Source: Sphyrna mokarran (Eukaryota). From it: DNA of 64,000 nucleotides. Position numbers and translations under genes: made by a program. Every line of letters starts with the position of its first letter. The first letter of the stretch is position 1. Positions 425-28,286 of the stretch are shown here, piece by piece. The notes beneath the pieces are model-generated. The model was not told the DNA's origin and did no database searches. It was given only the letters and a program-made list of their open reading frames with translations. The DNA lies in the NCBI GenBank assembly GCA_024679065.1, contig JAGIQG010000040.1:5890001-5954000 (forward strand), written 5' to 3'.

Positions 425-1311
425 TGAACTTAGTCACCATTGTGATCCTCATTCGCAAAAACTGTGGTCTCTCCAGATGTGTCACTCGTTACCTGGTGGC
501 CATGTCATTGTCGGATCTGCTGGTTATTATCCTTGACCTGATATTGAGACACATTCCAATTGTTTTTAATGAATTGTTTCATTTCCTGAGATTGATCCCC
601 GTGTGTAATATCCACGCTGTCCTGCTTTATGCAGCCACTGATTGTTCTGTCTGGTTCACCGTCACTTTCACCTTTGATCGATTTGTGGCCATTTGTTGCC
701 AGAAGCTGAAAAATAAATATTGCAGCGAGAAAGTGGCATCTGTGGTTCTGGGAACAGTGACTGCACTGAGCTGTTTAAAGAATATTTTCTGGTATTTTAT
801 GGTAACACATCAGTATGTATTGATGAACGACCCTTGGTTTTGTAATTATTCATTTGATGTCCTGTTTTCTCCAGTCTGGGGAGCAATTGTGTTCCTCCAT
901 TACATTCTAACACCATGTATTCCATTTGTTCTGATTCTTCTTCTCAATTTTCTCACTGTCAGATACATTTTACTGACGAGCAGAGCCCGCAGAAGGCTCC
1001 GGGCTCACTGCAGTGGTGAGAATGCCAGAGACCCAGAAATGGAAAGTCGAAGGAACTCCATCATTTTACTGTTTGTTATTTCAGCCAATTTCATCCTGTT
1101 ATGGTCAACGATAATGATCGATACTTTATCTTTCCAGATATTTTGGTTAGGTTCTCCATCTCTATACAGTGCGGTTTTTGTTCGAGAATTGGGATTCATG
1201 TTGCAACTCATGAGCTGCAGCACAAACACTTTTATTTATGCGGTCACCCAGACTAAGTTCAGGGAGCAGCTGAAGAATGTGATGAAGTACCCATTTACTC
1301 AAAGTCATTAA
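425..1311 (+). CDS. GPR139/GPR142-like class A GPCR, copy 1, coding exon 2 (exon 1 lies upstream of the window)
   Basis: Pyrimidine tract and AG at 423-424, phase 1. The ORF covers TM1(part)-TM7 with LVAMSLSD (TM2), TFDRFVAIC (DRY-like), ECL2 Cys (DPWFC) and NTFIY (NPxxY-like). Stop TAA at 1309-1311. Confidence 0.9.
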
Positions 1312-1399
1312 GAGAAAGACTGAGTCACTCAGAGTTTCCAGATTTCTCTTTTGTTTACATTTCCTGAAAAGGGAGGTACAAACACGACAGGATCCCCAT

Positions 1400-2540
1400 A
1401 GATTCATCAAGTTGTATAGTGCAGAAAAGGTTCTTCAGTCCATCAAATTTGCACCCACAATAACTATCACTCAAACCGCATTACTTGCATGCTCATGCAC
1501 TTGTCCCATATCCTTGAATGTTATAATATTTCAAATTCTCATCCACATACTTGTTAAAATTTATAAGGTTTCCACCTCAATTACTTTTGCAGGCAGTGCA
1601 TTCCAGATTCTCACTATTTGCTAAGACTTTTTTCAAATCCTCTCTGAATGTCCTGCCGCTACCTCAAATGCTACACCTCCTTGTGATTGATCCTTGACCA
1701 AAAGGAATATCTGATTCCCATTCAGCCTGTCCATAGCCCTCATAATCTTATACACCTCAATCATGTCTCCTCAGCCACTTCTGTGCCTATCTAAGCCTCT
1801 TCAGTCTCCTTTATAGCTCAAATGTTCTATTCTAGGCAGAAGTGTTGCGAATATCCTCTGTATCAGCGGAATCACATCCTTCCTTCTGTGAGATGACCTG
1901 ATCCATACGCAGTACTCCTGCTGTGGCTTAACCAGTGTTCTGTACAGCTCCAACATTATCCTTGTTCTTCTACTCAATGCCACAACTGTCAAAAACAACT
2001 GTCTATATGCACTCCTAAACATGATATTCACCTGCTCTGCTGCCTTCAAGGATTTATGAGTATTTACCCCAAGAACCGTCTGTTCCCCTGAGTTTCCTCG
2101 TGTCCTGCATGCGTTAAATACTCCCTTGTCTTGTTATTTCTCCCAAAGTGCATCAAGTCGCACTTAGTAGGATTAAATGCCGCCTGCCACTGCTTTGTCA
2201 TCTGACCAATTTATCTCTACCTTTCTGACAACTACAGCCTTTTTCTTTACCTTTAACCACCCTACCAACCTTGCTTAGCATTCCTCTACATTTCATCCTA
2301 GAATTGATATAGATAATAAATAGGAAGTGTCCCTGCACTAATCTTTCTGATATGCCACTAGACACTGGTTTCCAGCCACTCAAACAGCCTTCTATGATGA
2401 TACTTTGTTCATAATTACGAAGCCAGTTTTGGATCTGCATTGCAAAGTTCCCCCGAATTCTATGTGTTTCATTTCTATCAATCAGTTCTCCCATGTCGGT
2501 CCTTGTCAAAAGCTTTGCTAAAATCCATACATCAATTGGA
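1400..2540 (-). mobile_element. Old CR1 LINE 3' fragment, duplicated along with the GPCR unit
   Basis: Degraded RT C-terminal peptides (LYRTLVKP..EYC; QNWL..Q..IIEG). A homologous copy lies at ~12890-13480 and ~15545-16100. Confidence 0.75.
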
Positions 2541-2929
2541 CCCTCCTATTGAATAGATCAACTATCCAAGATCCAATTACCTTGCTCTGACTTGACAGCA
2601 GTACAATAAGAACGATATAATTTCCTCTCCGATTCACCCTTTCAGCTGCCCATTATCCCACTACTTCACTCTGATTGGATAGCAATCATCCAAATATCAC
2701 CCTCTTGGTAAATGGTTCTACAATTCCCACAGTACACTGCTGGGGGTGGCCTGAAGAATTGAGATTTCAGAGAGGGCATGAGGTAAGCGAAGAAAGGTGA
2801 GGTCACAAACGGCACCTACATAACTATCTGGATTAAGAGTTAAGTGTTGCATTGTCAATTTGAAGTCAAATGGAACAGGAAATTGAAGGGGAAACAGGAA
2901 AATCATTAGGCTCCAGAATCAGCCTCAAC

Positions 2930-3262
2930 GAGAGAGAGAAAGGGAGAGATAAATCGCAAAAAAAACAATAGGATCAGATACCAAGAGAGAGAAAGAAAAA
3001 TAAGGGGAGAGAGTGAGGTAGGGTGAGAGGGGCAGAGCGAGAAAGGGAGGAAGTGACGACAGGGAGAGCCGCAGAGAGGCAGAAAGGGGGCAGAGAAGGG
3101 CAAAGGCATAAAGAAAAAGAGGGCAGAGAGAACAGGGGCATAAAGGGAGAAACAGAAGAGATAGTATGGAAAGTAGACACAGGGAAGAGAAAGAGAGGCA
3201 GAGAGGTGGGGGAAGGTGGAGCGGGCGAAAGTTAGTGAGGGAGAGAGAGATGGAGAGAAGGC
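2930..3262 (+). repeat. GA-rich polypurine low-complexity tract
   Basis: Almost pure A/G on the + strand. A longer paralogous tract lies at ~16490-17060. Confidence 0.8.
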
Positions 3263-3440
3263 CACGATAATAAGGAATAATGCTAGAATTATATACAGTA
3301 ATATTTCAACTTTACAAATAAAGTATGTTTATTATTTTAAAAATGGAAGGAGACAACAATAGCTGAGAATGCAGAGCCAAATATCCCCAGGAATAGCGTC
3401 AGGATCCCCCTTTGAACATCGAACACCTCCCTGTGCTTAC

Positions 3441-4215
3441 TGATGTACCCAAACAGCCCATCTGAAATGGCGTTTCGTAAAGCACTTTGGGGCAATTGGG
3501 CAAGAAAGCAAACTGACAGACTGCAGTTTAAAGACAGAGACAAACAGACTGCAACCCTGACGAGTAAATAAACAGGATATGGGTCATCTCCAGATGAAAG
3601 AGACTTTCTGGTCACACTGAGTTGTGTACCAGACAAAAGGGCACCGTGACTCCTTATTTAGGAGAGAGGTATGTGACCTATGTGTCTCCAGCCCCTAAAG
3701 GCATGGCCGTTGGGGACACACACAGAGATCGGTGTGTTAGTACCTGATTGGACTCTTATCGATCAGGGGATCAAATCCTGATCAATTGATTGGCAATGGC
3801 CAAAAAAGTGCGTGAAAGCAAACGGGGTATAAAGGGTACTGCTCAACCAGGAATATTTCTCTCTGTCTGACCCCACGAACGAGCTACAATAATGATGAAA
3901 AAACCCAGCAAGAGGAGAGCCTCCACACCCGACAAGTAAGGAAGAAGACCAGAGCCAGAACAGACCAAAGGACCAGACTACGCAAATGACTACAAGACCA
4001 GCGCGCAGATAAAGGCCAATATCTGCTTGGGTACTTGCCAGTCACACAAAGTTAAGTCAAGGTCGTCGAATTGGACTTAAATTTCAGTATTTTCTGTAAG
4101 GTAACTTATTGTTGGTCGGGTGGGTGATTATTGATTTTGTGGGTTTAAATAAAAACTGGTTGTATAACAAGACGTCTACTCATAGTTATTTGTCCACCGT
4201 ATAGGGGTTAAAACA
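3441..4215 (+). mobile_element. Possible solo LTR
   Basis: Begins TG where homology to GPCR unit 2 stops and ends ..AAAACA. It has an internal TATAAA (~3828) and AATAAA (~4148). No target-site duplication found. Confidence 0.4.
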
Positions 4216-4639
4216 CACAGTGCGGGAGGCAACACTGAAAAAGTAATTGACCACACTTTCCATGTTATCGTGGAGCAGGTGCAGGTTGGGGTAAAATCTT
4301 TGAAAGAGTCAAAATGGAGGAGAATTCTCCATAATCCCTGGTGGTTAAAAGTGTGAAAGGAATTTATGGGGTTAAAGAAGACCATATCCAAAGTTTCGTG
4401 CTATCACCTGCATTTAACTGGTGTTAACAAGTTGTCCCGAAATTAGTCGTTCCTCAATCTGGTTATGGTTCCTTTATTGTGGAGTCCAATAAGCGTAGAC
4501 AAAGGTCATAGGTAGAAGAGGGCACTCACAGTGTTAAAATGAGTGGCGCGGGCTTGTTGGGCTGAAGGGCCTGTTTCCTGTGCTGCGTTGTTCCCTGGCG
4601 ACAACAATGATAATGATTGTCGAGGGCTTCAATTTTCCA

Positions 4640-5180
4640 TATGTACTGACCAGCAACAATCAGTCCTGGTCCCTCCATGCTGATGCGATAGTTTGGAAAG
4701 CTCACCAGTGTCTCCACTTTCTCGGGGAGCTGAAAAATTCAAGTTGTCCACTGCAACCCTCACCAGTTTTTTTCACGCACCACAGAGACCAATCTTTCTG
4801 AATTTATCGCAGTTTGGTATGGCTCCTGCTCTGACCACGATTGGACGAGGTTTTGAACGTAACTGAGTCCATAACACAAACCAGCCTCTCATGCATTGGT
4901 TCCGTCTACACTTCCCACTGCCTCAGAAAAGCACCCAGCATAATCAAGTTCCCCATGTATCCCAGACATCTCCTGTTCCAACTTCTTCCATCGGGGGAAA
5001 AAATGCAAAAGTCTGAAAACACGTACCAAAAGATTCAAGAACACCTTCTTCCCTGTTTGCATCAGACATTTGAATGGCCCTATCTCACATTAAACTGTAA
5101 CAGGATATTCTGCACTCTCTCCTTTTCATTTCCTTCTCTTTCACCACAAACGCTATGTTTGACCGTATTGCACAAAAAAC
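4640..5180 (+). mobile_element. Rex1/Babar-type LINE 3' fragment
   Basis: Similar to the 3' parts of the copies at 19150-20700 and 49960-51240 (KAHQ.L.FL peptide, shared 3' UTR). Confidence 0.6.
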
Positions 5181-5859: not shown

Positions 5860-6200
5860 ATTGAAAAACATGCTGAACAAAATGGCATTCACACAAAGTA
5901 CACAAATATTCAAGTGGTCTGCACAGACCGAGTTGCATTCTGAGATGCTTCAATCCAAATGTGATACATGTAATATGAGCCGTGTGCATTCGCTGTGGAT
6001 CATAATGCCCGAGTTGATCTATAACATTCCTTATCTTTCTATTCACAATGGCCGAAAGGTCTTCCACAGCAACCTTCCCATTTTGTGCATATGTGATGGA
6101 TGTCCCTTGCTTTACCGCATCCCTCAGCAAGTAATCCTGGCTTCTGGAATGTGTCAGTCTGCAACATGCGATCAGGGGCAACATTTGACACTGAGAAACC
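5860..6200 (-). mobile_element. L1/Tx1-like ORF2 C-terminal remnant
   Basis: Peptide CCRLTHSRSQDYLLRDAVKQG resembles the C-terminus of vertebrate Tx1-type ORF2. Confidence 0.45.
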
Positions 6201-6630
6201 ACTTTTCACCAGCTCAATTCACATTGATTGATCTATTGTTTTATGGTTTATCCATTTCTCCTTTCTTTGCAACTGTCTTATGCCGTGGCACCACTCCCAT
6301 TTCCAAGGAGTTTTGAAAGATTGTAATCAGCATATCGACTAATTCCACCTTCCCTGTCCTCAGTCAACCTCATACATCCCACAGATACGAGTAAATGTTT
6401 GACTTGATTTGGATGCAAAATGTTTTGGATTGAAACGAGTTAACTGAACTTGTTTGTTCAGTGAGTGTAATAAGTGTTAGCCTCCATGGATCCCAACTGT
6501 GTCACTGGAGGTTTTCTCACTGCTATTAATAAGGGATTCTTTTCAATGCAGCACAAACTCAGGAACTCATAGCTCGGGTGAGAGGGGGAGAAGACACTAG
6601 CTTCTGAGAATAGATTATAATGTTAGAAGA

Positions 6631-6847
6631 ATGGCGCAGACTCTAAGCTTACGCAATTTGAATATTACAACTGTGGATCAGAATCTGAGAGCAATAGACT
6701 GGAATTTTCTAACAGATGATGGAGATTATTTCTTGAACATCGTTAAGTCCATTGACGTTCAGAGACCATGGGATTACCAGATCGACGATATATTGAAAAG
6801 CATTCAAGAGGGATATTATCCTGTCCTTGCTATTGTTGGCGTCCCTG
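6631..6847 (+). CDS. GPR139-like GPCR copy 2, coding exon 1 (N-terminus and start of TM1)
   Basis: ATG at 6631, then MAQTLSLRNLNITT...YYPVLAIVGVP, with N-glycosylation sequon NIT. Donor G|GTAAGT at 6847/6848. The exon is 217 nt (phase 1), matching the exon 2 acceptor phase. An AT-rich TATA-like element sits at ~6523-6532. Confidence 0.85.
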
Positions 6848-8499
6848 GTAAGTTCTTCCATCCAGCTATTTATTCCATAAACTGTGATGAACTGAATTAT
6901 TTTTCTGGTTATTTACGCCCTTGAATAAAATGAATTCGATTTCTTCAGCTCCAGTCGCTCATTCCATTCCGAATCCCGTGACACCACGCCGCTCTCTGGT
7001 TGCCAGCAGAGGCCATTCAGAACCTAACATTTCCGTTTGACCTTGGCTGGATTTTCAATGTCATATTCTCTCCATCCCAAGTCCTGTCTGCAACCATCTC
7101 GATAATATCAAACATGCCCACTCCTGCCTCAGTCCAGCACATCCATTGAATAATTCCTCATCTCCGTGCGAATATTCTCATTCTTGGTTTCACTGCTGCA
7201 ACTAGTTCCCAATCCATTCATCAGATTCCTGCAAGTCCTCTCCCTTCAGGATTTGTCCAATCCCCTGTTTGCAATGAATTCCGCTCTCCCACCTGTCTGT
7301 AATATTCACATCCACATGGTCAAATTTGCCAGCTTAAAAAAGCTCAGAAGTAATAGAATGATGTGGGAAGTTCTTTTATTTACTTCCCGCTCTCCCTGGT
7401 GTGGTATCCATGTTGGAGGAGATGTTTTAACAGCTCTGACACGTCTTTGTAACTTTGTCTGTGCCAGTCCACTAGACGCCTGTGTTCGTCACTCTCAGTC
7501 GGTCATGATTAAGCAACGCGAGGGATCTCCCCTCCAATGTTATTCTTTAAATATATTTTCATTGAATTTTGGCATTTTTATGAATAATACAACACACCCT
7601 CAAACCTGAGATCCAGCACAGCTTGGGGTTTTCCCCATATATAAACATGGAAAAGGACAGGAAGAAGACAATGCAATTAATTCAGTACGTTCCGTATGCG
7701 CAGCTCCTCCACATAGACAAAAGAAAGCAAGAACAGACAAGTAACAGTATGGGTAAAAGAGGGGAAACTCAGCAGCCACCGCGTGTACTACCTACAAGAT
7801 GCATTGCAGCAATTCACTAAAGATCTTTTCACAGTGCCTTTCAATCCCATGACCACTCCCACCTAGAAGCACAAGGTCAGACTGATTTGAAACGTTAACT
7901 CAGTTTCACTCTGCACAGATGCTGCAAGAGCTCCTGGGTTTCTCCTAAATGTTTTCTTTTCGTTCCAAATTTTCAGCATCCGCACTGCTATTTTTTAGTT
8001 TCGAGCTGCCCAGCGATCGGGAGACTGGCAGTGTGGGCTACTTCACACGAGGTGATATCAGCACTGACAGATCGATGCACGTGCACTGGCCTACTCAGTG
8101 TTATGCTGGCGGCCCTCTGGTGGGAATACTGATTTCAGCGTGAAGGGCTCTCTGCACTGCACAGATTGTGGGCGGTTCAATTTAAAACTCCCACTGAAAA
8201 CACCAGCAGGATTCGCTCCATTTTTTTTCAGTGAATTTGACGCTTAGAATTTTTTTTTGAACAATAACCCCGTGATCTTCTCTATTCTGCATTTCCAATA
8301 ATTTAAATGCACGTTAATTTTCTGGAAATCATCTTTTCTTATGTGTATGTCTGCGGGTTTCAGGATGAAGTGATTGTTTCATTTTCCACGTTTTGTAGTA
8401 AATAAGTATATATCCTATGAAAGACTGTTTTTGACAGTTCTCAGAAATCACTCCCCTAGAGGGTTTAAGAACTTCTCTCATCGTGCATCTTGTTCAATG

Positions 8500-11480
8500 A
8501 ATAAATCAAAGAACAAAGAACAAAAAAAAAACTACGGCATCGTAATATCTCCTTTGGGCCTCCAAGCCTGTACCGACCATGTTGCCCGACTGAACTAAAA
8601 CATCCTACCCTTCCAGGGCGATATTCCTCCATTCCCATCCGATTCGTGTATGTTTCAAGACGCCCCATAAAAGCCGCTATCATACTTGTTTCCATTATTT
8701 CCCCGGCAACGAGTTCCAAGCTCCCATCACCTTCTCCGTAGAAAACGTGCCTCATACTTTCCGTTAAGCCTTGCCCCTAGAATCTTATACCTATGCCCCG
8801 TAATAATTGTCTCTTCCATACTGGGATAAAGCTTCTGACTATCCACTCTGTCCATGCCTCTCATATCTTGTAGACATGTTTCAGGTCACCCCTCAACTTC
8901 TGTCGTTTCAGTGAGTTTCTCCAAAATCTTTTCATTCTCTCCATACCAGACAACTTCCTGGTAAATCTCCTCTGTACCAACTCAAAAATCTCCACAGCCT
9001 TTTGGTAGTATGGCGACCGGAATTGAACACTATTCCAAGTGCGGTCTAATGAAAGTTCTATAAAACTCAATGCCCCGGCCAATGAAGGCAAGCATGCCGT
9101 ATGCCTTCTTGATTATTTTTTGTGCTTGCATTGCCACTTTCAGCGACCTGTGTACTTGTACACATAGATGCCTCTACCTATCAATACTATGAAGGGTTCT
9201 GCCATTTACAGTATGTTTCCTATCTAAATTAGACCTGCCAAAATGCATTGCCTCACATTTCTCTGAGTTCAACTCTGTCTGCCATCTCTCTGCCCAAGTC
9301 TCCAACCAATGTATATCCTGCTGTATCATGTGATGGTTCCCATCACTACCTGAATATCTACCAATCTTTGTGTCATCTGCAAACTTACTAATCAAACCAA
9401 TTAAATTTTCCTCCAAATCATTTACATATAATACAAACAGCAAAAGTCCTAGCGCTGATGCTTTGGATGCAGAACTGGCTCGGTCACAGAAGACAGAGGG
9501 TAGCAGTGAAGGACGCATTTCTGAACAGGGGGCTGTGACAGATGGCGTTTCTCAAGGATCGCTAAAAAGACCATTTATTTCCATGCCGGAGTAAAGCCTC
9601 TGCAATAATTTCCCGAGCATTGACACAAGGCTCATAGGCCTGCAATTATCTGGATTATTCTTGCTACCTTTCTCAATGAAAGGAAAAACATTAGCCATTC
9701 TCCAATCCTCTGGGATCTCCTCGCAGCCAGTGAGGATGCAAAGATTTCCGTCATGGCCCCAGCAATTTTCTTCCTTGCCTCTCAGTATTCAGACCGATTA
9801 GGCCCTGGGAACTTAGCTGCCTCAGTGCTTATCAACAACACCAATACTTTCACCTTTTTAATCTCAAAATAACTCAAACTATATGCACACCCTTTCCCAG
9901 ACTCATCATCCATCAAGCCATTTCTCTTTGGTAAATGCTGATGCAAAGTACCCATTTAATACCTCAGAATTTCCTCTGGCTCCACACATAGATTCCCTCC
10001 CCTACCCTTGAGGGGGCCGACCATTTCCATTTCTACCCTCTTGCTCTTCATATATGTATAAAAAACCTGGGATTTTTCTTAATCCTTTTGGCCAATGATT
10101 TGCTGTGATCCTTTTTAGCCCTCTTTATTCCTTGCTTAAGTTTCTTTCTACTTTCCTTGTACTCCATACTTTCTTCATTTGTTCCCAGGCTCCTATCGTG
10201 GACAAATTCTTGCTTTTTCTCTTTGACTACGCTCACAATATCTCTGGTTATCCAAAGTTACCAAAATTTGCTATTCTTATCATTCATCCTTTGAGGGACA
10301 TGCCAGTCCTGATCCCTGTCAACTTACATTTGAAAGCCTCCCACATGCCAGGGATTGATTTGCTCTCAAATATCTGGCTCCAATTGAAATTTTTCAGTTC
10401 CAGCCCAATATTGTTGTAATTAGCCTTCTCCTAATTTAACATCTCAACTTGAGGACTACACTGATCTTGATCCATCAGTACCTGAAAGCGTAATGAATTG
10501 TCGTCACTATTCTCGAACTGCTCTCCGACTGAAACATCAACTACTTGCCTGGGCTTATTCTCCAATACAAGATCCAGTACGGCTCCTTCAGTAGTTCAGC
10601 TAACTACATACGTTTTAAGAAAACATCTTGAATGCTCCTTACAAACCCTGTCTCAACCATAACCTTAGCACTAAATGAATACTCATCGATATAGGGTGTG
10701 TTAAAATCTCCCACCACAACAAACGTATTAGTTTTACACCTTGTCAAAATCTACCTCCATATTTGTTACTCTATTTCCCGCTGGCTGTTGAGCGCCCCTA
10801 TAGCAAACATGAACATTGTGATTGCACCCTTCCTATCCCTGAGCCCTATCCATATTGCCTCGCTGTACGAGACTCTGAGTGTCATCCCGCCGTACAGCTG
10901 TAAGCTTCTCCTTTACCTGTTACACTCCTCGCATTGAAACAAACGCACTTCAATCTACCAGACTCTCATTCATTAGCAACCACATTCTACCTCTCTTTCT
11001 CTCAGTCTTAGTGGCCTACTCTCTGGTTCCCGTTCAGTTAATTCACTTTGCTTTTGTTCCCACTCCTCTCCAAACTAGTTTAAATCTTCCCGTGTGACAC
11101 GAGCGAACCTCCCAGTCAGAATAATTATATCCTTCTGGTTTAGATGTACTCCATCCTACTTGATCCTAATGGTCTGGATATATGCAACTCCACATCTTAC
11201 GGCAGCTGTTCAGCCACTTGTTGAGTTGTGATATCTTCCTATTTTCAGTCCCACTGGCATGTGGTACAGAGGGTAAGCCTGAGACTATAACGCGAGAGGT
11301 ACTGTTTTAACTTACTACTGAACACCCTAAACTGCTGCTGCCTCTGTCTACCTATGTCATCAGCACAAATATGTACTTCAGAAATTGGTGTTCACTTTCT
11401 CCCTTCAGAATTCTTTCTGTCCATTCACAGCCATGCTCGACCCTGGCACTGGGGAGGCAACATACCATGCAGATGTATCT
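8500..11480 (-). mobile_element. Degraded long CR1 LINE in the GPCR copy 2 intron
   Basis: Broken APE and RT peptides (LLFVLYVNDL..ISKFADDTK; VQRRFTR; KRIKKNPRFF), with the CR1 tail near 8500. Confidence 0.85.
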
Positions 11481-11908
11481 TTCATGTACAAATCAAAATA
11501 ATTTAACATTGTTTTAAACCGTTTGGAAAATGCATAAATTGCCAATATCTTTCCTCTGACCCAACAGGCCTCTCATCAGTGGCTCCTTCCAATAACACCT
11601 ATGCCCCATCACTCCTGAGTTCTACATCATGCCTGCATCCCACCACAATCACCAGGATCCCCTGTCACCCTAGATGCTCTCCATCACCTCTGGCTCACTG
11701 TGTTGTTGCAGCCTCACATTTTTCTGCACACCCTGAGTTTGATACAATTCCTTACATTGTGTCACAGACTTTCCCATTGTTGTGTCAGGTCTGATTATTT
11801 TAATACATTACAGTATGCAGTAGTACGTCTCAATAACTCCTCAGTCAAAGTGTTCATTTTGGCAAACGCATGATGTGTGATTCCATTGTTTATTTCCCTT
11901 CCTCACAG

Positions 11909-12795
11909 TGAACTTAGTCACCATTGTGATCCTCATTCGCAAAAACTGTGGTCTCTCCAGATGTGTCACTCGTTACCTGGTGGCCATGTCATTGGCAGAT
12001 TTACTGGTTATTGTCCTCGACCTGATATTGAGACACATTCCGATTGTTTTTGATGAATTGTTTCAGTTCCTGAAATTGATCCCCATGTGTAATATCCACG
12101 CTGTCCTGCTTTATGCAGCCACTGACTGTTCTGCCTGGTTCACCGTCACTTTCACCTTTGATCGATTTGTGGCCATTTGTTGCCAGAAGCTGAAAAATAA
12201 ATATTGCAGTGAAAAAGTAGCATCTGTGGTTCTAGGAACAGTGACTGCACTGAGCTGTTCAAAGAATATTTTCTGGTATTTTATGGTAACACGTCAGTAT
12301 GCATTGATTAACGACCCTTGGTTTTGTACTTACTCATTTGATGTCATGTTTTCTCCAGTCTGGGGAGCAATTGTGTTCCTCCATTACATTCTAACCCCAT
12401 GTATCTCATTTGTTCTGATTCTGCTGCTCAATGTTTTCACCGTCAGATACATTTTAGTGATGAGCAGAGCCCGCAGGAGACTCCGGGCTCACTGCAATGG
12501 TGAGAGTGTCAGAGACCCAGAAATGGAAAATCGAAGGAACTCCATCATTTTACTGTTTGTTATTTCAGCCAATTTCATCCTGTTATGGTCAACGATAATG
12601 ATCGATACTTTATCTTTCCAGATATTCTGGTTAGGGTATCCATCTCTACACACTGCGTTTTTTGTTCAAGAATTGGGATTCATGTTGCAGCTCCTGAGTG
12701 GCTGCACAAACACTTTTATTTATGCGGTCACACAGACTAAGTTCAGGCAGCAGTTGAAGAATATGATGAAATATCCATTTACTCAAAGTCATTAA
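11909..12795 (+). CDS. GPR139-like GPCR copy 2, coding exon 2 (spliced protein 367 aa)
   Basis: AG at 11907-11908; G+TG rebuilds the Val of GVP-VNLVT. Same 7TM motifs as copy 1, and the ORF is uninterrupted. Confidence 0.92.
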
Positions 12796-13527
12796 GGGAA
12801 ACTGAGAGTTTCCAGATTTTTGTTTTCATTTCCTTTTACATTTCTTGAAAAGAGAGGGTTCAAACACAACATGATCTCCATCGATTCATAGAGTTGCACA
12901 GTGCAGAAAAGGTTCTTCTGTCCATCAAGTCTGCACTCACAATAAGTGCCACTCAAGTCACATTGCGTATATGTTCTAGCACTTGTCTCATATCCTTGAA
13001 TGTTATGATGTTTCAAGTTCTCATCCAGATACTTTTTAAAGGTTGCAATGTTTTCCACCTCCATTACCTCCATTCCATCGCAGGCAGGGCATTCCAGATA
13101 CTCATCATCCACTGAGTATTTTTTTTACAAATCTCCTCTGAATCCCCTGCCCCGTTCCCAAAAACTATGTCCCTTTGTGATTGATCTCAACCAAGGGGAA
13201 TAACTACTTCCAATTCAACATGTCCATAGCACTCATAATCTTACGTACCTCAAACATTTTGTTTGGCCACCTCTGTCCCAGAACAAAATAACAATCTAAA
13301 TCTATCTAGTCTCCCTTTATTGCTCAAATGTTTCATTCTAGGCGAACTCTTAGTGAATATCCTCTTTACTAGTGGAATCATATCCTTCCTACAGTGAGGT
13401 GGCCAGAACTGTACGCAGTATGCCAGCTGTGACCTAACCAGTGTTCTGTGCAAATCCAACGTTACCTACTTGATTTTCTACCTTATGAACTATGAATTAA
13501 TGAATCACCTTATGAACTAATAAATCA

Positions 13528-15010
13528 CCGGGGCCTAATGACGTTTATCCCAGGCTGCTTAGGGAGGTGCAAGGTGAAATTGCTGGGCCTCTGACACAAA
13601 TCTTTGTCTCTTCCTTGGACACAGGTGAGGTCCCAGAGGACTGGAGAACAGCTAATATTGTACCGTTGTTTAAAAAGGGTAGTAGGGATAACCCTGGAAA
13701 TTATACGCCACTGAGTTTGGCGTCAATGGTAGGGAAGCTGTTGGAGGGGATTCTTAGAGATAGGATGTATAGGCACTTAGAGCGTTGCGATCTGATTAGG
13801 GATATGCAGCATGGATTTGTTAAGGGGAGGTCATGCCTTACGAATCTGGTAGAAATTTTTGAGGAGGTGACGAAAACGGTGGACGAAGGCCGAGCCATTG
13901 ATGTTGTCTATATGCATTTTATTAAGGCGTTTGACAAAATCCCTCATGGGAGGTTAGTTGAGAAGGTCAAGGCTAATGGGATACAAGGACAGGTAGCTAG
14001 ATGGATAAGTAACTGGCTTGGTAATAGGAGACAGAGAGTAATAGTGGAAGGATGTTTCTGTAGCTGGAGATCAGTCACCAGTGGTGTGCCACAGGGCTCG
14101 TTACTAGGACCTCTTCTATTTGTAATATATGTAAATGACTCGGAAGAGGGAGTAAGTGGAGTGATCAGCAAGTTTGCAGACGATACAAAGATGGCTAGAC
14201 TTGCGGATAGTGAGGAGCATTGTCAGGCGATGCAGCAGGACATAGATAGTCTGGTAGCTTGTGCAGATAGATGGCACATGGAATTCAATCCTGATAAATG
14301 TGAGGTGATGCATTTCGGGAGAAAGAATGTAGTGGGGAGGTATATGATAAAGGGTAGACCTATTAAGAGTATTGAAACGCAGAGGGACCTTGGGGTGCAT
14401 GTGAACAAGTCTCTGAAGGTGACAGAGCAAGTGGAGAAGGTTGTGAAGAAAGCATATAGTATGCTAGCCTTTATAGGAAGGGGTATAGAGTAGAGGAGCT
14501 GGCCTTTAATGTTGCAGTTGTATAAACTCTGGTTAGACCTCATTTGGAATACTGCATCCAATTCTGGTCACCTTACTACTGGAAAGACGTGGAGACTCTG
14601 GAGAGAGTGCAGAGGAGGTTTACCAGGATGCTGCCTGGTATGGAAGGTCTGAGTTACGAGGAGAGATTAGGCAAATTGGGACTGTTTTCCTTAGAAAGAC
14701 GTAGACTTAGAGGTGATCTGATAGAGGTGTACAAGATTATGAAGGGGATTGATAAAGTAAACACGGTTAAGCTTTTCCCTAGGATGGACTCAAATAGCAC
14801 GTGGGGTCACGGGCTTAGAGTGAGGGGGATAAGGTATAATTTGGATACTAGAGGGAGTTTTCTCACACGGGGGGTGGTGGGGGTATAGAATGCGCTGCCA
14901 AGTAAAGTGGTGGAGGTAGGTACTCTGGAGTAATTTAAGAAATACTTAGATGGGCACATGAACAGAATGGGAATGGAGGGGTACAGAAAACTGATTTAAA
15001 CTAGGGATCA
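13528..15010 (+). mobile_element. 5'-truncated CR1 LINE (RT domain), present only in GPCR unit 2
   Basis: RT ORFs 13567-14493 and 14544-14888 (QHGFVKGRSC, GVPQGS, FADDTK). It interrupts the older CR1 shared with unit 1. Confidence 0.92.
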
Positions 15011-15210
15011 TGAGCCTTTGGAGTCCCTGGGAAGTGTGTAAATAGATGATATTGATGTACTTGTTTTTATCCTACAGGTGCTTTGGTCCACCTTGTTGTC
15101 TAACGAGGGGCATACACGCGATGGGTCGTGAGAGGGCTGCTCTTGGATATTTTTCGAGAGTATCCTAGTGCTTCACGTCGTTAGTGTACGCTTGACCTGG
15201 ACCATTTGAT

Positions 15211-15537
15211 GGGCAACACGACAGCTCAGTGACTATCGCTGTGCTGTGCAGATACATGGATTTGGGCCTGTGTCTGTGGGAGTTTGCGCATTCTCCCCGT
15301 GCTTGCGTTGGTTTTCTCCGGGTGCTCCGGTTTCCTTCCACATCCCAAAGATGTGCTCTGAGGGTAATTGGCAAAACAAATTCTCCCTAAATTGTCTCAA
15401 ATTTGATTTTTATTGCATAGATCTATAAACATAGACAGGGATCACGGGTAGAGGTGGGAACATCGGGGTGGCGGCGCGGGCTTGTTGGGCCGAAGGGCCT
15501 GTTTCCCGAGCTGTTTTGTCCTTTGTTCTTTGTTCTT
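15211..15537 (+). mobile_element. V-SINE (HE1-like) with CR1-derived tail
   Basis: tRNA-like head, V-domain core (GGAGTTTGCGCATTCTCCCCGTG...CTCCGGTTTCC) and tail GAAGGGCCTGTT...(TTTGTTC)n. Confidence 0.8.
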
Positions 15538-16489
15538 GATGTTTATGCCACAATTGCTAAAAAAGTGTCCATATGAGTTCCTCAATACCATACTCATCTG
15601 ATCTGCTGCCTTCCAAGTAACTGTGAATAATTAACCGAAAAATCCCTCTGTTCTTCTGAGCCTCCTTGTGTCTTGCTATTACTAAATTCTCCCTTCTCTT
15701 GTTAATTCTTCTATTATCTAGCAATTATCAGCGTTAAATGACATCTGCCACTGTCTGCCATTTGGCGAACCCATCTACATTGTCCTGACAACTACAACCA
15801 TTTTTCTTTATTCTTAACCACCCGACCAACATTGGTTATCATTCTACATTATCATCCTATCATTTGCATAGATAACAGACAACAAGTGTCCCTTCACTGA
15901 TCTTTGTGGTACGCCACTAGACCTGACTTCCGGCCATTCAAGCAACCTTCTATGATGATATTTTGTTCACAATTACAAAGGCGTGTTTTGGATCTGCATT
16001 GAAAGGTTTCCCTAAATTCTAAGTGTTTCATCTTTGTCAATCAGTTCTCCCATGTGGGTCCTTATCAAAAGCTTTGCTAAAATCCATATAAATTACGTCA
16101 GTTGGACACTTCCATTGGCTAGGTAAACTGTCCGATATCCAACTACCTTGCTCTGACTTAACAGCAAAACAATAATATCACCTCATCGATTCACCCTTCC
16201 AAATGCCCATTCTCCTGCTGTTTTACGCTGATTGGACAGCAATCATTCAAACATCACTCTCTTGCAAAGTGGTTCTTCAATTCCGACAGTGCACCGGTGG
16301 AAAAGGCCTGAAAAATTGAGGTCACATTGAGGGCATGAGGTAACCAAAAGGAAGTGAGGTCACAGAGGCCACGTACATAAACACCTGGGGTTAAGAGTTA
16401 AATGTCGTATTGTCAATTTGGAGTCAAAATGGGATCGGGGATTGAAGAGGAACAGAAGTGTTATTAAGCTCCAGAATCAGTCTCAGCGA

Positions 16490-17060
16490 GAGGGAGGGAA
16501 GGAGAGATATCTAGAACGCAAATGAAACATCAGGATCAGACACCCAGAGAGAGATAAAGAAGGGGAGAGAGTGAGGTAGATCGAGACGTGCAGTGCGAAA
16601 GAAGTGTGAGGTAGGACAGAGAGGGTTGCAGGGAGCGAGAAAGGGGGCAGAGAAGGAAGCAAATAGGATTGCTATTTGAGGATGCAGTGAGAGAAAGAGG
16701 GCGCAGAGAGTGAGGAGACAGAGAGAGGGGGGCAGAGGGAGAGTGAGCAGAGAGACAGAGAAAGAGACAGATGCACTGACAGCGTGGGACAGTTAGAGAG
16801 GTAGAAGGAGAAGGTGGGGCAGTGAAACCAATGGAGCAGACAGCATGTAGAATGAGAGTGACAGAGAGAGAGGGGTTGAGAGAGATAATGGCACATGGAA
16901 AGAAGGGACAGAGAAACCATAGACATAAGGAGAGAAGTGGCAGAGGTAGTGGGAAAAAATAGATGCAGAGAAGAGAGAGACAGAAAGATAGCAGAGCGTA
17001 GGAGAAGGGAGCGAACTTTAGTGTGTGAGAGAAGTGGAAACAAAGCCGCGAAAATGGAGA
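16490..17060 (+). repeat. GA-rich polypurine tract (paralogue of 2930-3262)
   Basis: Purine-rich low-complexity sequence with the same flanks as in unit 1. Confidence 0.75.
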
Positions 17061-17314
17061 ATAATGCTGGTAATATATGCAGCAATATTTCAACTTCACA
17101 AATGAACTAAGTTTAGTATTTTAAAAACGGACAGAGACAACCCAAATAGTTGAGAATGCACAGCCAAACACTGACAGGAATGGCTGCAGGGTGTTTGTGT
17201 GAACATTGAACACCTCCCTGTGCTTATTGAAAAAAATAATTGTCAAACTATACAAAGACTGAATGCCATCCATGGTATTGACAAAATAACATGATACGTT
17301 GGATGTTAATTTCA

Positions 17315-18770
17315 TAGAAAACATAGAACATAGAAAAACTATAGTACAAACAGCCTATCATTTGCGCCGATCATATCACTACCTACTAGGCTTACCTATA
17401 ACTCTCAATCCTATTAAGTCCAATGTACTCATCCAGAAGTCTCTTAAAAGACCTTATCGAATTTGCCTCCAACACCACCAATGGCAGCCGATTCCACTCA
17501 CCCACCACCTTCTGAGTGAAAAACTTATCCCTGATATGTCCTTTATACCTACTCCCCAGCACCTTAAATCTGTTTCCTCTCATAACAACCATTTCAGACC
17601 TGGGAAAAAGCCTCTGAGAATCCATCCAATCAATACATCTCAACATCTTATACACCTCTATCAGGTCACCTTTCATCCTTCATCTCTCAAGAGAGGAAAG
17701 ACCTAGCTCCCTCAATCTATCCTCATAAGGCATGCCACCCAATCCAGGCCACATCCTCGTAAATTTTCTCTGCAATAGTTTCCATATCCCTCTTGTAATG
17801 AGGCGACCAGAACTGAGCACAGGACTCCAAGTGCTGTCTGACTAGAGTCTTAGAAAGCTGCAGCATTATCTCCCGACTCCTAAACTCAGTCCCTCGATCG
17901 ATGAAGGCCAGTACGCCTTCTTAACCATATCCTCTACTTGCGAGGCCAAATTAAGAGTCCTATGGACCCAGACCTCAAGACCCTACTGATCCTCTACACT
18001 GCTAAGAGTCTTACTTTTGATATTGTACCCCTTCATCCCATTTGGCCTGTCAAAATGGACCACCATACAGTTATATGGGTTGAAGTCCATCTGCCACTTC
18101 TCTGCTCAGTTTTACATCCTATCTTTGTCACGCTGCAACTTCTGACATCCCTCCAAACTATCCACAACACCAGCAACCTTCATGTTGTCGGCAAATTTAC
18201 CAACCCATCCTTCCACTTCCTCATCCACGTCATATATGAAAAATCACAAACAGCAAGGATCCAAGAATAGGTCCCTGGGAAACTCCACTGGTGACCTCCA
18301 AGCGGAAAAAACTCCATCTACAACCATTCTCTGCCTTCTGCAGACAAACCAGTTCTGGATCCACAAAACAACGTCTCCTTGGATCCCATGCAACTTCACT
18401 TCCTCAATAAGTCTTGCATGGGGGACCTTATCGAACTTCTTGCCGAAGTCCATATAAACCACATCTGCCGCTCTTCCTTTGTCAATGTGTTTAGTCGCAT
18501 TTTCAAAAATCTCAACCAGACTCGATCTGCCTTTGACAAAGCCGTGCTGACTAGTCTTGATCATACTATGCTTCTCTAAATGTTCATAAATCCTGTTTCT
18601 CGGGATTGTTTCCATCAACTTGCCAACCACTGAGGTTAGACTCACCAGTCGATAATTTCCCTTTCTTGAGTATAGGAAGCACATCCGCAACTCTCTAAAT
18701 CTCCGGAACCTCTCCTGTCTACATTGATGACGCAAAGATCATCGCCAGAGGCTCTGCAAACTCTTCTGTA
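17315..18770 (-). mobile_element. CR1 LINE 3' portion (degraded RT)
   Basis: NYRLVSLTSVVGK, QHGFVKGRS, GDLIEVYKML; (TTCTATG)-like tail at ~17315-17335. Confidence 0.88.
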
Positions 18771-19149
18771 TCTGAACCGTCACAGCTGGAAGGAGAGTCA
18801 GCGAAAAATGTTCTGTAGAGTTTCAGTGAATGTAGAATTGTGAAGGGGAAGGGTAAATGTAACACAGTGTAAGATGCAGTGCTTAGTTAATATTCAACAA
18901 TAAACATGAATTATTGTTCTTTTCCTCTCTGAGTTTAATGGTATGTTTCCGCTCGCATTCCAACCGGGAATCTTTCGTTAGGTAACTGAGGTAATCACTA
19001 CATTACAAAACCGATGCGTTTCCCCCACCCTAGAATGGGTGAACATGTAATTGAGGCCGTCTTTGCAGGTGTTGAAGCACCTTTCTCGAAGTTCAACTCA
19101 CGGAGATGATGAGCTCAGATGGGGTACCCAAATGAGCACTCAGATCATG

Positions 19150-20700
19150 TTGACAGGGATATTCGCAGACAACTTCAATCTCTCTTTACAGCGATTTGAA
19201 GTCCCTACCTGCTTCAAGAAGACAACCATCATTCCAGTACCAAAGAAAAACCAAGCAGCGCGCCTTCTTGATAATCATTCAGTGGCTCTGACATCCATCA
19301 TTATGAAGTGCTTTGAAAGGCTAGTCATGGCGTAAATCAATTGCAACCTCCCAGACTGTCTGGTTCCTCTAAAGTTCCTCTACCGCGGCAACAGGTCCTC
19401 AGTAGACACCATCCCCCTGGTCCTGGACTCAACCCTGTAACACTGGGGTAACAAAGGTACCTATGTCAGAATCCTATTCATTGACAAAAGCTCAGCCCTC
19501 AACACTATGATTCCCAAGTAAATCATCTCCAAACTCCGTGGCCTGGGCATCGTCTTTTCCCTCTGCGAACTTCCAAATCAGCAAAATGCAATCTGTAAGG
19601 ATAGGCAACAGCACCTCCTCCATGTTCATCCTCAACACCGATACCTGACAGGGTTGCGTTCTCGGCCCCCGACTACACTTCTTATAGACCTATGACTGTG
19701 TGACCAAATTCCCTTCCAATTAGTTTTTCCACTTTGCTGACGACACCACCGCAGTGGATTTGATCTCAGGCAATTATGAGACAGAGTACAGGAATGAGAT
19801 AAAGATTCTGGTGAACTGGTGTGGCGATAATAATCTCTCTCTCAATGTCAATAAAACGAAGGAGATTGTCATCGACTTCAAGAAGCATAGAGGAGAACAT
19901 GCCCCTGCCTACATCAAACGGGACGAAGTAGAAAGGATCGAGTACTTCATTTGGTTTTGCTTTCCAGATCACCAACAACCTGTCCTGGTTCCCTCATGCT
20001 GACATTATACTTAAGACAGCCCACCAACGACTTCACTGTCTCAGAAATGTTAGAACATTTGGCATGTCAGTTACGACTCTCACCAACTTTTATAGATACA
20101 CCACGGAGATTATTCTCTCTAGTTGTATCACAGCTTGGTATGGCTCCTGTTCTGCCAAAGATCACAAGAAACTACAAAGGGTCGAGAACGTAGTACAGTC
20201 CATCAGGTTGATTGGTGTAACAAATTATGCCTAAATTATCTCTCCAATCTGGTTTCCAATGTGGATTTCCATAAACATAAACAAGGGTCATGGGTACAAG
20301 TGGGAACAGTTAAAACGGCGGCGCGCGCTCGTTGGGCCAAGGGCCTGTTTCCCTTGCTATGTTGTTCTTTGTTCTTTAAACCAGCCTCCTATCCATTGAC
20401 TCTGTCTATACTTGCCGCTGCCTCGGCAAAGTAATCAGAATAATTAAGGATCCTACGCATCTTCCGTCGGGAAAAAAAATACAGATTCTGAGGTCACATA
20501 CCAACCGGCTCAAAGAACAGCTTCTTCCCTGCTGCCATTTAAATGGACCTCCCTCGCACAAAGTTCATCTTTCTCGACACCTTAGCTATGACTGTAACAC
20601 TAGATTGTGCACTCGTCCCTATCTTTCTCTATGTCTGATACGCCTTTTCTGTACAGCCCAAGCAACAATACGTCTCACTACATACCAATACATGTGACAA
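19150..20700 (+). mobile_element. Rex1/Babar-type LINE fragment with a nested SINE 3' piece (~20210-20378)
   Basis: PTCFKKTTIIPVPKK..VALTSIIMKCFERLV and WCGDNNLSLNVNKTKEIVIDF peptides. Confidence 0.8.
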
Positions 20701-21263
20701 AAACATATCAAATCATATCTACCCGAGGTGCTGCTTCCCTAGATAAGATACTTAACCTTCATCTAGATCGAGCGCTCTGATGCAAAGTTAAAATATGCCA
20801 TGGTCGCTATTTTAGAATGAAAAATGAACATTCTCCCCCACGTTTCTGAGCCAAAGTGTATAACTCACTTATCATAGTTGAAACACGAGGTTTTTTTTTG
20901 TATCTTTACCTCAAAGAAGTCTTGCCCTGGACACAACTTGTCTTGGCTAGGAGAGTTATTGGAATGGTATTTTTGATCACGAACTTCTCCAAATAATGGT
21001 CAGCTCACGCAGGGTGAAACTGATAGCAATTCTGCCTCACTCTGGGCCACTGGGGAAGAAGACCTCACAAATGTCCCCGAAATAAAACATTTAAAAAATA
21101 ATTTTACCGATCTTGCCCAGTTAAGTATTTATGGCAGTTTCCTAGTTTCCTTTGGTGGCGGTAATGTTGGAACGGCATTGTTCCATTCAAGTTGATGTTA
21201 AGAAACTCCACCTGTGAGTTACAGTCTGTGTGTCACTATCTTGTCACTAAAAATAATACAATG

Positions 21264-21281
21264 TCACCATCTGCTGGTGGC
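21264..21281 (-). promoter_or_regulatory. Candidate CTCF motif (reverse orientation)
   Basis: Minus strand reads GCCACCAGCAGATGGTGA, close to the core CCASYAGRKGGCRS. Motif match only. Confidence 0.4.
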
Positions 21282-22558
21282 TTTCATTTACTACAAGCGC
21301 TGCCCGTTGTGTGTCACAGAGAAATTCAGTCAGTCGCCGGCTGGACCTGTCGGATCCAAGTGGACCTGGGAGCCAGTTGCTAAAGTATGAATATTGAACA
21401 ACATTGCCAGGGATGGAAATTTGCAGCAGGAAGTCTGACAGCGCATTTGCCCTTTTGTCACCATCTACCCTCTGCGAAATTTGTTCCCCATTACCTATGG
21501 GAGATATAGTTTGGAAATTGCAGTTTGGGATTAATGTATACCACTTAGTGTATTTATCACATGTTAACTCCATCCAAACTTGTAGTAGGTGAAGGTGCTG
21601 TCTTTTGATGTATCAAGTTATTTGGAAATTAAATTGATCATGATATCTGGGCGACATAATATTAGTGGGCAAAAAAACCTGACAGATTAATGTTTTTCAA
21701 TTTTTTATTGAAATCAATCTCCGTTTGCGTTAATCCGTGCAAAATAAATGATTTTAGTAAAAGCATTTTGCCACCTCGAACAAGGAATTACAGAATTCTG
21801 CCGAATAACACACGCTTCATTTCAGATAACTATAAAGAATGGATAAATGTTATCCTTGTTTTAATTCTTGATAGTTAATTCTATTTATCCAATATGACGC
21901 CATAAAGAATGAATGAAACGTATTCACATCAGCATGAAACTTTGCAGAGTGCAACTGTTGTTGTGCTGCAAGCAGAGAGAAAATATTTTGCCCCATTCCT
22001 CCCTAAACTAAGCATTTTGTTCCAACCGTTACATTTTCAAACTTACCTGTGAAATGTGGAAATATTTTTGCTACTATTAACAGAGTTTTTTTATGGGGAA
22101 TTTTTGAAATGAGATTCTCAGACAAGTTAGATTTTCTAATCTCTGTATTTTCATGGCACTTCGAAAAGAAGGGCAGGACGATAGAGACAGAGACCAGAAG
22201 AAAGAGGGTGGAACCCTGAAGATGTCAGCAAGAGAAAGAGAAACAATCAGACTAAATAATTCTCTCTGACTCTCATTTATCGGTGCGCCACTTCGAATAG
22301 TACAGACAGACTGCCCTGAAAAGCAACCTCGGTTTCTGAGTAATGAAGCTAGTTCCTGATCTGGGTTACACTTTATATTAGTTTGAAAGAATCGACATAT
22401 CGAGGATAACCTATATTTTCTGCCGAACTCGAAAGGAATATTCTCCTTGTTCCGCACTGATTGTAATGTTCTTGCTGTGTATTGAGTCTCTGTGCAGTCA
22501 GTGTATTATTATTGTGTTTAATTTCTGATTTTTGGAGCACTCTGGATTTGTGTTACAG

Positions 22559-22846
22559 GAGATAATAGCGATGATTCGTTGTCCCAGGCTCCTTCTGAAT
22601 TAACAATTTAGGAAGGATAGGGCACAATACCGGACTGTGGTTAGTCAACAACCTATCGTGAACCAACCCTGTCCTGGTACACCCAGATCCTTCATACTCA
22701 ATAAGAATGCAGAGCAGATATTTATCTCAAGAGTTACTAGATTTTCTACTGTTTGCACAAAGGAAACAAAACTGCTCTTTTAAGTAATTTTCTCTCTGAC
22801 AACGCTCTGACACCACTGCTGATCGAGCGATTCCCGAACAAAACCC
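22559..22846 (+). pseudogene. TCR alpha/delta-type V pseudogene
   Basis: Acceptor TTACAG|GA, then GDNSDDSLSQAPSELTI*EG*GTIPDCG*STTYREPTLSWYTQ. Later RFST..SDTTA and a nonamer-like ACAAAACCC. Multiple stops and deletions. Confidence 0.65.
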
Positions 22847-22868
22847 CAGACTGGGAGTTCCAGTAAGC

Positions 22869-22885
22869 TGCCACCAGAGGGCGCT
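22869..22885 (+). promoter_or_regulatory. Candidate CTCF-binding site (consensus match)
   Basis: TGCCACCAGAGGGCGCT contains CCACCAGAGGGCGC, a full match to the CTCF core. Confidence 0.6.
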
Positions 22886-23329
22886 CTCACACCGATAAAC
22901 AAATTCACTCTCCACTGAGAGAATCACACGTGCCTTCCTTAAACATCAGGGCAGAAAACAACCTCAACAGTAGGAAAGGAACATTTGACGAATTATATTA
23001 CTTTATGTCAACGCAGTTGAGCTCGCTGATCTTCTTATATCTGAACTCTTTTGTTTAACGATTGTCTTTTGATCCAGTTTCCGTGCCTGTCAAGTATTCA
23101 ATTTTGCTGTTTCAGAGAAAGTGCATACACAATGAGGACATTTCACACGGAAGTGACTGTGACCTTTAAAATATGATGTGGAGAAACAGGTCATATACAG
23201 ACAAAAACTCAATTTACCAAGATAATTGTTGGGATGCGATCTTCACATGTAATCAAATCTTAAAGGTACAGAGAGTGTGAGTGGAGAGAGGGCCAAGCCC
23301 AAGTTAAAGAAATGTGTATTGTCTCCAGC

Positions 23330-28202: not shown

Positions 28203-28286
28203 GTGAGTTTATTGATTTACCCAGACGGATTATTTTAACAATCTCTTCATACCGTATAGTTAATGACTGATTTTTTCTGTTCACAG

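What the first reader, a model, noticed from the sequence alone, without database searches (positions are those of the whole stretch)
425..22900. Tandem orphan GPR139-like receptor array directly abutting a TCR alpha/delta V cluster
Seen: two paralogous two-exon 7TM genes, ~11.5 kb apart, end ~10 kb from the first V segment. Known: mammalian GPR139 is a single-copy aromatic amino-acid sensor, and mammalian TRA/TRD is flanked at its V end by olfactory-receptor arrays. Inference: an expanded GPR139-like family may form an uncharacterised chemosensory or immune receptor repertoire occupying an analogous position.
Basis: partly seen in the sequence, partly recalled or inferred. Interest (0 to 1): 0.7.

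Follow-up and report, generated by a model that had tools for sequence, protein, structure and literature searches.

The report
Orphan receptors inside shark T-cell locus
Two intact genes of a very large, little-studied family of shark cell-surface receptors sit in the middle of the T-cell receptor gene array and were copied together with its variable segments, likely as passengers that sense chemicals in other cells rather than as part of T-cell recognition.

Summary
The genes are real (352 and 367 aa, intact, 89% alike), but they do not flank the V cluster: they lie inside a 1.09-Mb TCR alpha/delta V array (132 intact V segments, 41 beyond the receptors), about 0.5 Mb upstream of D-J-C delta. 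Thirteen copies of one receptor clade sit there in islands; a 25-kb receptor-plus-V unit occurs five times (about 90-98% identical), which makes a mis-join unlikely and shows co-duplication. Copies are under purifying selection (dN/dS about 0.4). They are not GPR139 (about 20% identity; 4 of 6 pocket residues differ) but belong to a related elasmobranch expansion with at least 443 copies in this genome, on many contigs. The catshark sister cluster probably lies on the IgH chromosome. Best reading: functional sensor genes hitch-hiking in a duplication-prone immune chromosome, like olfactory genes in mammalian TRA/TRD; tissue and ligand are unknown. Ten paper searches found no description of the expansion. 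This scan noted the family, and its mixing with TCR V segments, before on other DNA.

The parts
425..1311 (+). Gene A exon 2 (TM1 to stop) of an orphan class A GPCR; exon 1 is outside the window at C994:5880473-5880644
   Evidence: spliced frame 352 aa without internal stop
6631..6847 (+). Gene B exon 1 (N-terminus to start of TM1, one N-glycosylation sequon)
   Evidence: a contig of run X1 bridges this exon to exon 2
6848..11908 (+). Gene B intron, GT..AG, 5,061 bp
11909..12795 (+). Gene B exon 2 (TM1 to stop); whole protein 367 aa
   Evidence: AlphaFold model with seven helices, pLDDT 80.8
6560..31680 (+). Duplicated unit: gene B plus downstream DNA plus a four-V cassette, present five times in C994:5.55-5.92 Mb
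22573..22850 (+).
   Evidence: stops and frameshift
25395..26530 (+). TCR V segment split by a LINE 3' fragment (25491-26353)
28298..28561 (+). TCR V exon, open, RSS with 4 nonamer mismatches
29067..29321 (+). TCR V exon, open but Ser in place of the second conserved Cys
31343..31633 (-). TCR V exon with 23-bp RSS; most named PDB matches are TCR alpha chains
43054..43320 (-). TCR V exon with leader and 23-bp RSS
46589..46874 (-). Frameshifted TCR V pseudogene
52568..52855 (-). TCR V exon with 23-bp RSS (1 mismatch)
60049..60315 (-). TCR V exon with leader and perfect 23-bp RSS

Best explanation
The two genes are intact members of a shark-expanded family of orphan class A GPCRs, related to but separate from GPR139, that lie inside the TCR alpha/delta V array and were multiplied by the same block duplications as the V segments; they likely work as ligand-diversified chemical sensors in cells other than T cells, and their place in the locus is likely hitch-hiking. 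Steps shown: gene structure, embedding, one local clade, co-duplication with a V cassette, purifying selection, variable pocket residues, no RSS at the receptor genes. Steps inferred: an ancestral copy or pair settled in the V array of a chromosome already dense in this family; unequal crossing-over and inversions copied receptor-plus-V blocks; selection kept most copies open (11 of 13). Predicted: when a V beyond them joins J (24 minus-strand V by deletion, 17 plus-strand V by inversion), the receptor genes are excised or flipped on that allele, as happens to olfactory genes inside mammalian TRA/TRD. Ligand and tissue are untested.
For: Embedding: 162 V hits from 5.196 to 6.284 Mb, 132 intact with a 22-24 bp RSS; 13 local plus 2 other-lineage receptor exons inside; D-J-C delta at 5.36-5.38 Mb; J-alpha array and C TM exon at 4.38-4.45 Mb. 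Co-duplication: unit U3 matches the window at 96-99% from exon 1 to the V cassette; U4 91-97%; U1 and U2 88-99%. One origin: the 11 open local copies form one clade, SH-aLRT 100 (quick tree). Selection: 71 synonymous vs 98 replacement changes, ratio per site 0.40, p 8e-9; five disjoint pairs 0.37; pairwise values mostly 0.2-0.5. Position not special: 80 distinct copies found along C994 from 2.5 to 12.3 Mb, up to 18 per Mb at 10-11 Mb from incomplete lists, against 15 per 1.09 Mb in the V array; 252 places on 42 contigs; 443 exact motif matches, control 0; 2,449 first-look candidates. Sensor-type variation: entropy 3.2, 2.9, 2.7 bits at 6x51, 3x32, 7x38 against 0.57-0.66 on the inner halves of TM3 and TM6 in 40 family rows. 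Precedent: OR10G2 and OR4E2 lie between human TRAV genes (PMC4574546, passages).
Against: The family also clusters near other immune loci: copies 0.25-0.64 Mb from a TCR-beta-like C exon on C738, 18 of 119 hits on C1548 among MHC-II-like and IgL-like C1 exons, 13 such genes on the sawfish MHC chromosome (PMC10751288 supplement); an immune role would explain this better than chance. No tissue data were obtained. Loops and outer helix ends vary in most GPCR families, so pocket variation alone does not prove a sensory repertoire; no region showed dN/dS above 1 (extracellular half 0.66). Some local copies flank assembly gaps (U3/U4 around 5,803,883) and may be haplotype duplicates. No tree with GPR139 or GPR142 itself could be built.
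Confidence: 0.55

Rival explanations
1. The family is a leukocyte sensor repertoire (peptide, metabolite or microbial ligands) kept beside antigen-receptor and MHC loci for shared regulation or co-evolution.
For: 33 of 119 hits to an outgroup query fall on C994, 0.44% of the genome; copies lie near TCR-beta-like, MHC-II-like and IgL-like exons; 13 on sawfish chr34; the catshark sister cluster is probably on the IgH chromosome; catshark OR genes are mostly expressed outside the nose, some in spleen (PMC11979771, passages).
Against: Large arrays on C960, C1005, C894, C849 and C971 have no C1-set hit among the 150 listed; the IgL contig C772 has no motif match in the listed part; tandem arrays are not independent events; V(D)J deletion would remove these genes from many T-cell alleles.
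Confidence: 0.3
2. The window genes occupy the V-end flank of the locus, the position held by olfactory-receptor arrays in mammals.
For: A V-like piece follows gene B after 9.8 kb; three stop-bearing copies of another lineage lie just past the last V at 6.306-6.329 Mb.
Against: 62 intact V segments lie on one side and 41 on the other; the family covers the whole contig.
Confidence: 0.04
3. The copies are neutral debris dragged along by V duplications.
For: 2 of 13 local exon-2 copies are frameshifted and one exon 1 is orphaned; neighbouring V segments are often broken.
Against: dN/dS about 0.4 with p below 1e-6; 11 of 13 open; a spliced-form contig of a close relative exists in one run.
Confidence: 0.05
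4. The receptor-to-V junction is an assembly mis-join.
For: Six short N gaps lie in the 1.18 Mb mapped, some between near-identical blocks; no reads of this genome could be laid.
Against: No gap in the window; the same junction is found in four other copies at 88-99% identity, in both orientations.
Confidence: 0.03

Closest known systems
Human GPR139 (and GPR142), class A orphans activated by L-Trp/L-Phe; PDB 7VUG, 9M42
   Same: Best PDB match of the family profile (98 bits against 77.6 for the next); two-exon gene (PMC7318219 passage); H5x43 and W6x48 kept; databases give the name automatically.
   Different: 19-20% identity in structure alignment and not set apart from TRHR or NTSR1 by Foldseek, against 70% between human and zebrafish GPR139; E3x32, F3x33, R6x51 and N7x38 are L, Y, I and F in gene B; hundreds of copies instead of one.
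GPR210A/B (Rinne et al. 2019, PMC6504862) and 'Orphan 139-like' (table row, PMC5207463)
   Same: Non-mammalian relatives of GPR139/142; coelacanth, teleost and salamander proteins at 28-33% identity came up.
   Different: This genome has its own single-copy orthologue of the coelacanth gene (C805, 63%) and a second single gene (C1104), apart from the expansion; Rinne's text has no shark mention. That P0241 equals GPR210A or B was not verified.
Olfactory receptor genes inside mammalian TRA/TRD (OR10G2, OR4E2; Olfr1507-1509)
   Same: Non-rearranging 7TM genes between TCR V segments (PMC4574546).
   Different: There 2-3 genes at the far 5' end; here 15 copies in the middle of the array, repeatedly co-duplicated with V cassettes, and from a non-olfactory family.
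Vertebrate chemoreceptor repertoires (OR, TAAR, V1R/ORA, V2R)
   Same: Tandem birth-and-death arrays, variable outer pocket, conserved signalling face.
   Different: No sequence membership (only Pfam 7tm_1); olfactory expression untested; sharks are described as having small repertoires and few GPCRs (PMC11979771, PMC8455134, passages).

Membership tests
GPR139 orthologues | High identity to human GPR139 (70% for zebrafish) | tested here: not met
   phmmer E 1.1e-4, 25 bits; 19-20% identity; benchmark
GPR139 orthologues | L-Trp/L-Phe pocket F3x33, H5x43, W6x48, N7x38, R6x51, E3x32 | tested here: not met
   2 of 6 kept in gene B (H, W); Y, F, I, L at the others
GPR139 orthologues | Single copy | tested here: not met
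   443 exact motif matches; 133 of 133 scored hits at 67% identity or more
GPR139/142/210 clade in the wide sense | GPR139 is the nearest characterised receptor | tested here: met
   top PDB hit of the 43-row profile, E 5e-27; with gene B alone a prolactin-releasing peptide receptor scored slightly higher
GPR139/142/210 clade in the wide sense | Monophyly with GPR139/GPR142 in a tree | not testable with these tools
   no stored GPR139 or GPR142 sequence; tree lacks them
Class A GPCR | Seven helices, D/E-R-Y/F motif, TM3-ECL2 cysteines | tested here: met
   Pfam 7tm_1; model; R3x50 invariant, D 39 of 40, C60 and C139 conserved
TCR alpha/delta locus | V with 23-bp RSS, D with 12/23 RSS, J with 12-bp RSS and FGxG, C with charged TM | tested here: met
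   naming of the C exons as delta or alpha rests on D presence, J-array size and recalled TM motifs (PDB search of the C exon gave only generic C1 hits; Pfam DUF1968 found nothing)
RAG-rearranging gene segments | RSS flanking the gene | tested here: not met
   RSS scan of the window found none at the receptor exons; one weak site at 4222
Olfactory/chemosensory repertoire | Sparse expression in sensory neurons | not testable with these tools
   no tissue-labelled run was listed; catshark supplement unreadable
Olfactory/chemosensory repertoire | Large tandem family with variable ligand side | tested here: met

The most novel reading that the evidence does not exclude
Sharks and rays carry a hidden repertoire of hundreds to thousands of orphan receptors used by immune cells, and because one clade sits between V segments, V(D)J recombination deletes or inverts them clone by clone, so that T-cell clones differ in their GPCR content as well as in their TCR.
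Probability: 0.08. Interest if true: 0.9.

Novelty: new variant of a known kind. Interest (0 to 1): 0.55.

Why it matters
Cartilaginous fishes are described in print as poor in GPCRs and olfactory receptors (PMC8455134, PMC11979771, passages). A family with at least 443 copies in one genome, hidden under the automatic name GPR139, would overturn that and give a testable candidate for a missing chemosensory or immune-sensing repertoire. This locus adds that such genes can live, stay functional and multiply inside an active TCR V array, which bears on how antigen-receptor loci tolerate passengers and on the old association of 7TM arrays with TCR and MHC regions.

Tried and rejected
RNA search: no RNA holder listed; seven small-share runs of other organisms, kind only guessed. 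Laying showed many diverged family contigs but gives no tissue or level. Homologue searches with a V exon gave only three hypothetical bamboo shark proteins, so synteny could not be tested that way. Pfam DUF1968 found no TCR-alpha C. A J-with-RSS gapped pattern found nothing; a simpler J pattern worked. PDB search with the V at 60 kb gave non-diagnostic antibody fragments. The careful tree did not finish; the quick tree is used, with a long-branch warning at the root. Newt and axolotl TCR papers do not mention the salamander relative (passages). Shark TCR-delta locus papers (Deiss 2019, Ott 2021, Ohta 2019) were not held, so a mention there cannot be excluded. Upstream regions of A- and B-type copies align well but I did not test them against a neutral rate and make no promoter claim. 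Mis-join, neutral-debris and V-end-flank readings were rejected as above.
Full report
Observation. The window (no N) is C994:5,890,001-5,954,000 of a 2.77-Gb genome; the homologues are elasmobranch proteins, so the animal is shark-like. Two 7tm_1 exons lie at 425-1311 and 11909-12795, 89% identical and 11,484 bp apart. Gene B has exon 1 at 6631-6847 and a GT-AG intron; spliced it gives 367 aa without a stop. Gene A's exon 1 is outside the window and gives 352 aa. The 'first V' at 22,573 is a decayed pseudogene, the next V is split by a LINE fragment, and the first V segments with good RSS are at 31, 43, 52 and 60 kb.

The locus. I mapped 1.184 Mb (5.17-6.354 Mb) with a V profile built from the window's V exons: 162 V hits from 5.196 to 6.284 Mb, 132 of them open, near full length and followed by a 22-24 bp RSS with at most 3 mismatches, 65 on the plus and 67 on the minus strand. 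A D segment with 12/23 RSS, J segments with 12-bp RSS, a C exon, a connecting peptide and a charged TM exon lie at 5.36-5.38 Mb on the minus strand: TCR delta by the presence of D and by recalled motifs. A dense J array (43 distinct J in the 50 kb read, 4.384-4.410 Mb; pattern hits to 4.449 Mb) with a TM exon at 4.379 Mb is TCR alpha. Most named PDB matches of the V at 31.3 kb are TCR alpha chains. The contig also carries many IgH constant clusters.

Co-duplication. The array holds 13 exon-2 copies of the window's subfamily (11 open, 2 frameshifted) in islands between 5.56 and 6.00 Mb, plus 2 copies of another lineage; three stop-bearing copies of a third lineage follow the last V. The block from gene B exon 1 to the fourth downstream V (window 6.6-31.7 kb) exists five times. 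One copy matches at 96-99% in every part, including 9,648 of the 9,705 bases between 12.8 and 22.5 kb; a second at 91-97% (it begins at a gap and lacks exon 1); two more at 88-99% with about 60% of the 13-22 kb stretch aligned. This answers the mis-join test and shows that receptor and V cassette were copied together. An earlier scan note on another genome found no jointly copied unit; here there is one. In a quick IQ-TREE tree of 79 rows (11 local copies, 18 of 120 homologues, 42 near-full-length representatives, 6 bony-vertebrate and 2 unnamed outgroup proteins; fragments left out) the local copies form one clade (SH-aLRT 100), sister to catshark P0003 (99). Two blocks flank assembly gaps and may be haplotype copies, so copy numbers may be slightly high.

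Function is kept. Among the 11 open copies there are at least 71 synonymous and 98 replacement changes on 197 and 685 sites (ratio 0.40, p 8e-9); five disjoint pairs give 0.37; the extracellular half gives 0.66, the rest 0.26 (pairwise table). In run X1 (another organism, RNA only guessed, tissue not on record) one 429-base contig of depth 21 carries 225 bases from the exact start of exon 2 and a 50-base match in exon 1; its length fits the spliced form, though the letters between were not shown and an intronless DNA copy is not excluded (one run of the four laid in that call).

The family. A search of the genome gave 2,449 first-look candidates, all 133 scored at 67% identity or more; an 11-codon motif has 443 exact matches and its reversed control none; two searches give 252 distinct places on 42 contigs, 80 on C994. 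[quoted passage not shown] The name is automatic. GPR139 is the nearest solved relative of the profile, but identity is about 20% and four of six pocket residues named in PMC7318219 (passage) differ. Across 40 family rows positions 6x51, 3x32 and 7x38 are among the most variable while the inner helix halves are conserved; the salamander, coelacanth and teleost single genes keep a basic residue at 6x51 (numbering by alignment, segment limits set by me). The genome has separate single-copy relatives on C805 and C1104, so the expansion is a lineage of its own within the wider GPR139/GPR210 group (PMC6504862 and PMC5207463, passages).

Is the position special? Density inside the V array (15 per 1.09 Mb, full census) is no higher than at 9-12 Mb of the same contig (10, 18 and 7 per Mb from incomplete lists), and all 13 local copies trace to one origin. 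That favours hitch-hiking on a small, duplication-prone immune chromosome. Against this, the family recurs near other immune loci: three copies 0.25-0.64 Mb from a TCR-beta-like C exon, 18 of 119 outgroup-query hits on the contig with MHC-II-like and IgL-like exons (labels from recalled motifs), and 13 rows on sawfish chr34 in the supplement of PMC10751288, whose main text never mentions them. Other large arrays have no listed C1-set neighbour. The catshark sister cluster (XP_038630088-102) is on a 133,841,611-bp record; the same supplement puts catshark IgHM at chr17:110.4-133.54 Mb and gives chr16 as 145 Mb, so chr17 is the likely record. That is an inference, and catshark TCR alpha/delta is on an unplaced scaffold there, so embedding in the catshark V array is not shown.

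Mechanism. Shown: intact two-exon receptors, no RSS of their own, embedded and co-duplicated, under purifying selection. Inferred: ligand-diversified sensors acting outside T cells. Predicted from orientation: joining any of the 24 distal minus-strand V to the minus-strand J clusters deletes genes A and B from that allele, and the 17 plus-strand V invert them. The mammalian precedent is 2-3 olfactory genes among the first TRAV segments (PMC4574546, passages).

Print status. Ten searches (listings and abstract starts seen) found no paper on the shark expansion or its place in the TCR locus. The whale shark paper notes a paucity of GPCRs in cartilaginous fishes and the catshark paper small olfactory repertoires (passages); the elephant shark paper notes Ig-TCR linkage only (passages). 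Three shark TCR-locus papers were not held and the catshark supplement was unreadable, so a mention there is possible. This scan's earlier notes report the family in at least five genomes and its mixing with TCR V segments in other windows; they are leads, not support.

Verdict. A real and partly mis-described feature: not a flank but an embedded, co-duplicated, functional clade of a large undescribed receptor family. The family is the surprise; the TCR position is most likely incidental. New variant of a known kind; interest 0.55.

Noticed in passing
C994:3.07-3.11, 3.85-3.87, 4.38-4.45 and 5.36-5.38 Mb (L113-L119, L108-L112, L067-L070): Two TCR-alpha J-C sets and two TCR-delta J-C sets on one contig, with diverged sequences; the delta sets are on opposite strands.
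   Followed up: partly
C994:5,468,000-5,480,300 (L078-L079): An IgM-type V-J-C cluster sits inside the TCR V array, and an IgH-like V with 23-bp RSS lies at 5,389,103 just upstream of D-delta.
   Followed up: partly
C994:5.22-5.285 Mb and 6.205-6.266 Mb: Two blocks encode identical V and receptor proteins and both end at N gaps: a very recent duplicate or an assembly copy. A 24-kb 99% inverted repeat flanks the gap at 6,124,734.
   Followed up: no
window 33267-37205 (+): Apparently full-length LINE with an esterase-domain ORF1 and an open 960-aa endonuclease-RT frame inside the V array.
   Followed up: no
window 25491-26353: LINE 3' fragment, 94% like the full-length copy at 36430-37293, inserted into a V exon; the same insertion is in unit U3 but not in U1, U2 or U4, which dates the duplications.
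   Followed up: partly
C994:5,561,962-5,565,689 (L048): Receptor copy with an exon 1 98.6% identical to gene B but an exon 2 of the divergent local subgroup: a mosaic, suggesting gene conversion or recombination in the intron.
   Followed up: partly
C994 V array 5.196-6.284 Mb: Intact V segments are split evenly between strands (65 plus, 67 minus), so about half would rearrange by inversion.
   Followed up: no
L098 (C738:57.906 Mb) and L099 (C949:12.70 Mb): Two diverged TCR-beta-like constant exons on different contigs (label from recalled motifs).
   Followed up: no
L104-L105 (C446:25.48-25.50 Mb): An unsplit VJ exon followed by several C1 exons, like a non-rearranging antibody-type gene.
   Followed up: no
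P0247, P0273, P0276: Single salamander genes share the ICL3 motif of the shark family and group with it rather than with the coelacanth/teleost gene (support 93, long branch), hinting that the ancestor of the expansion survives in amphibians.
   Followed up: partly
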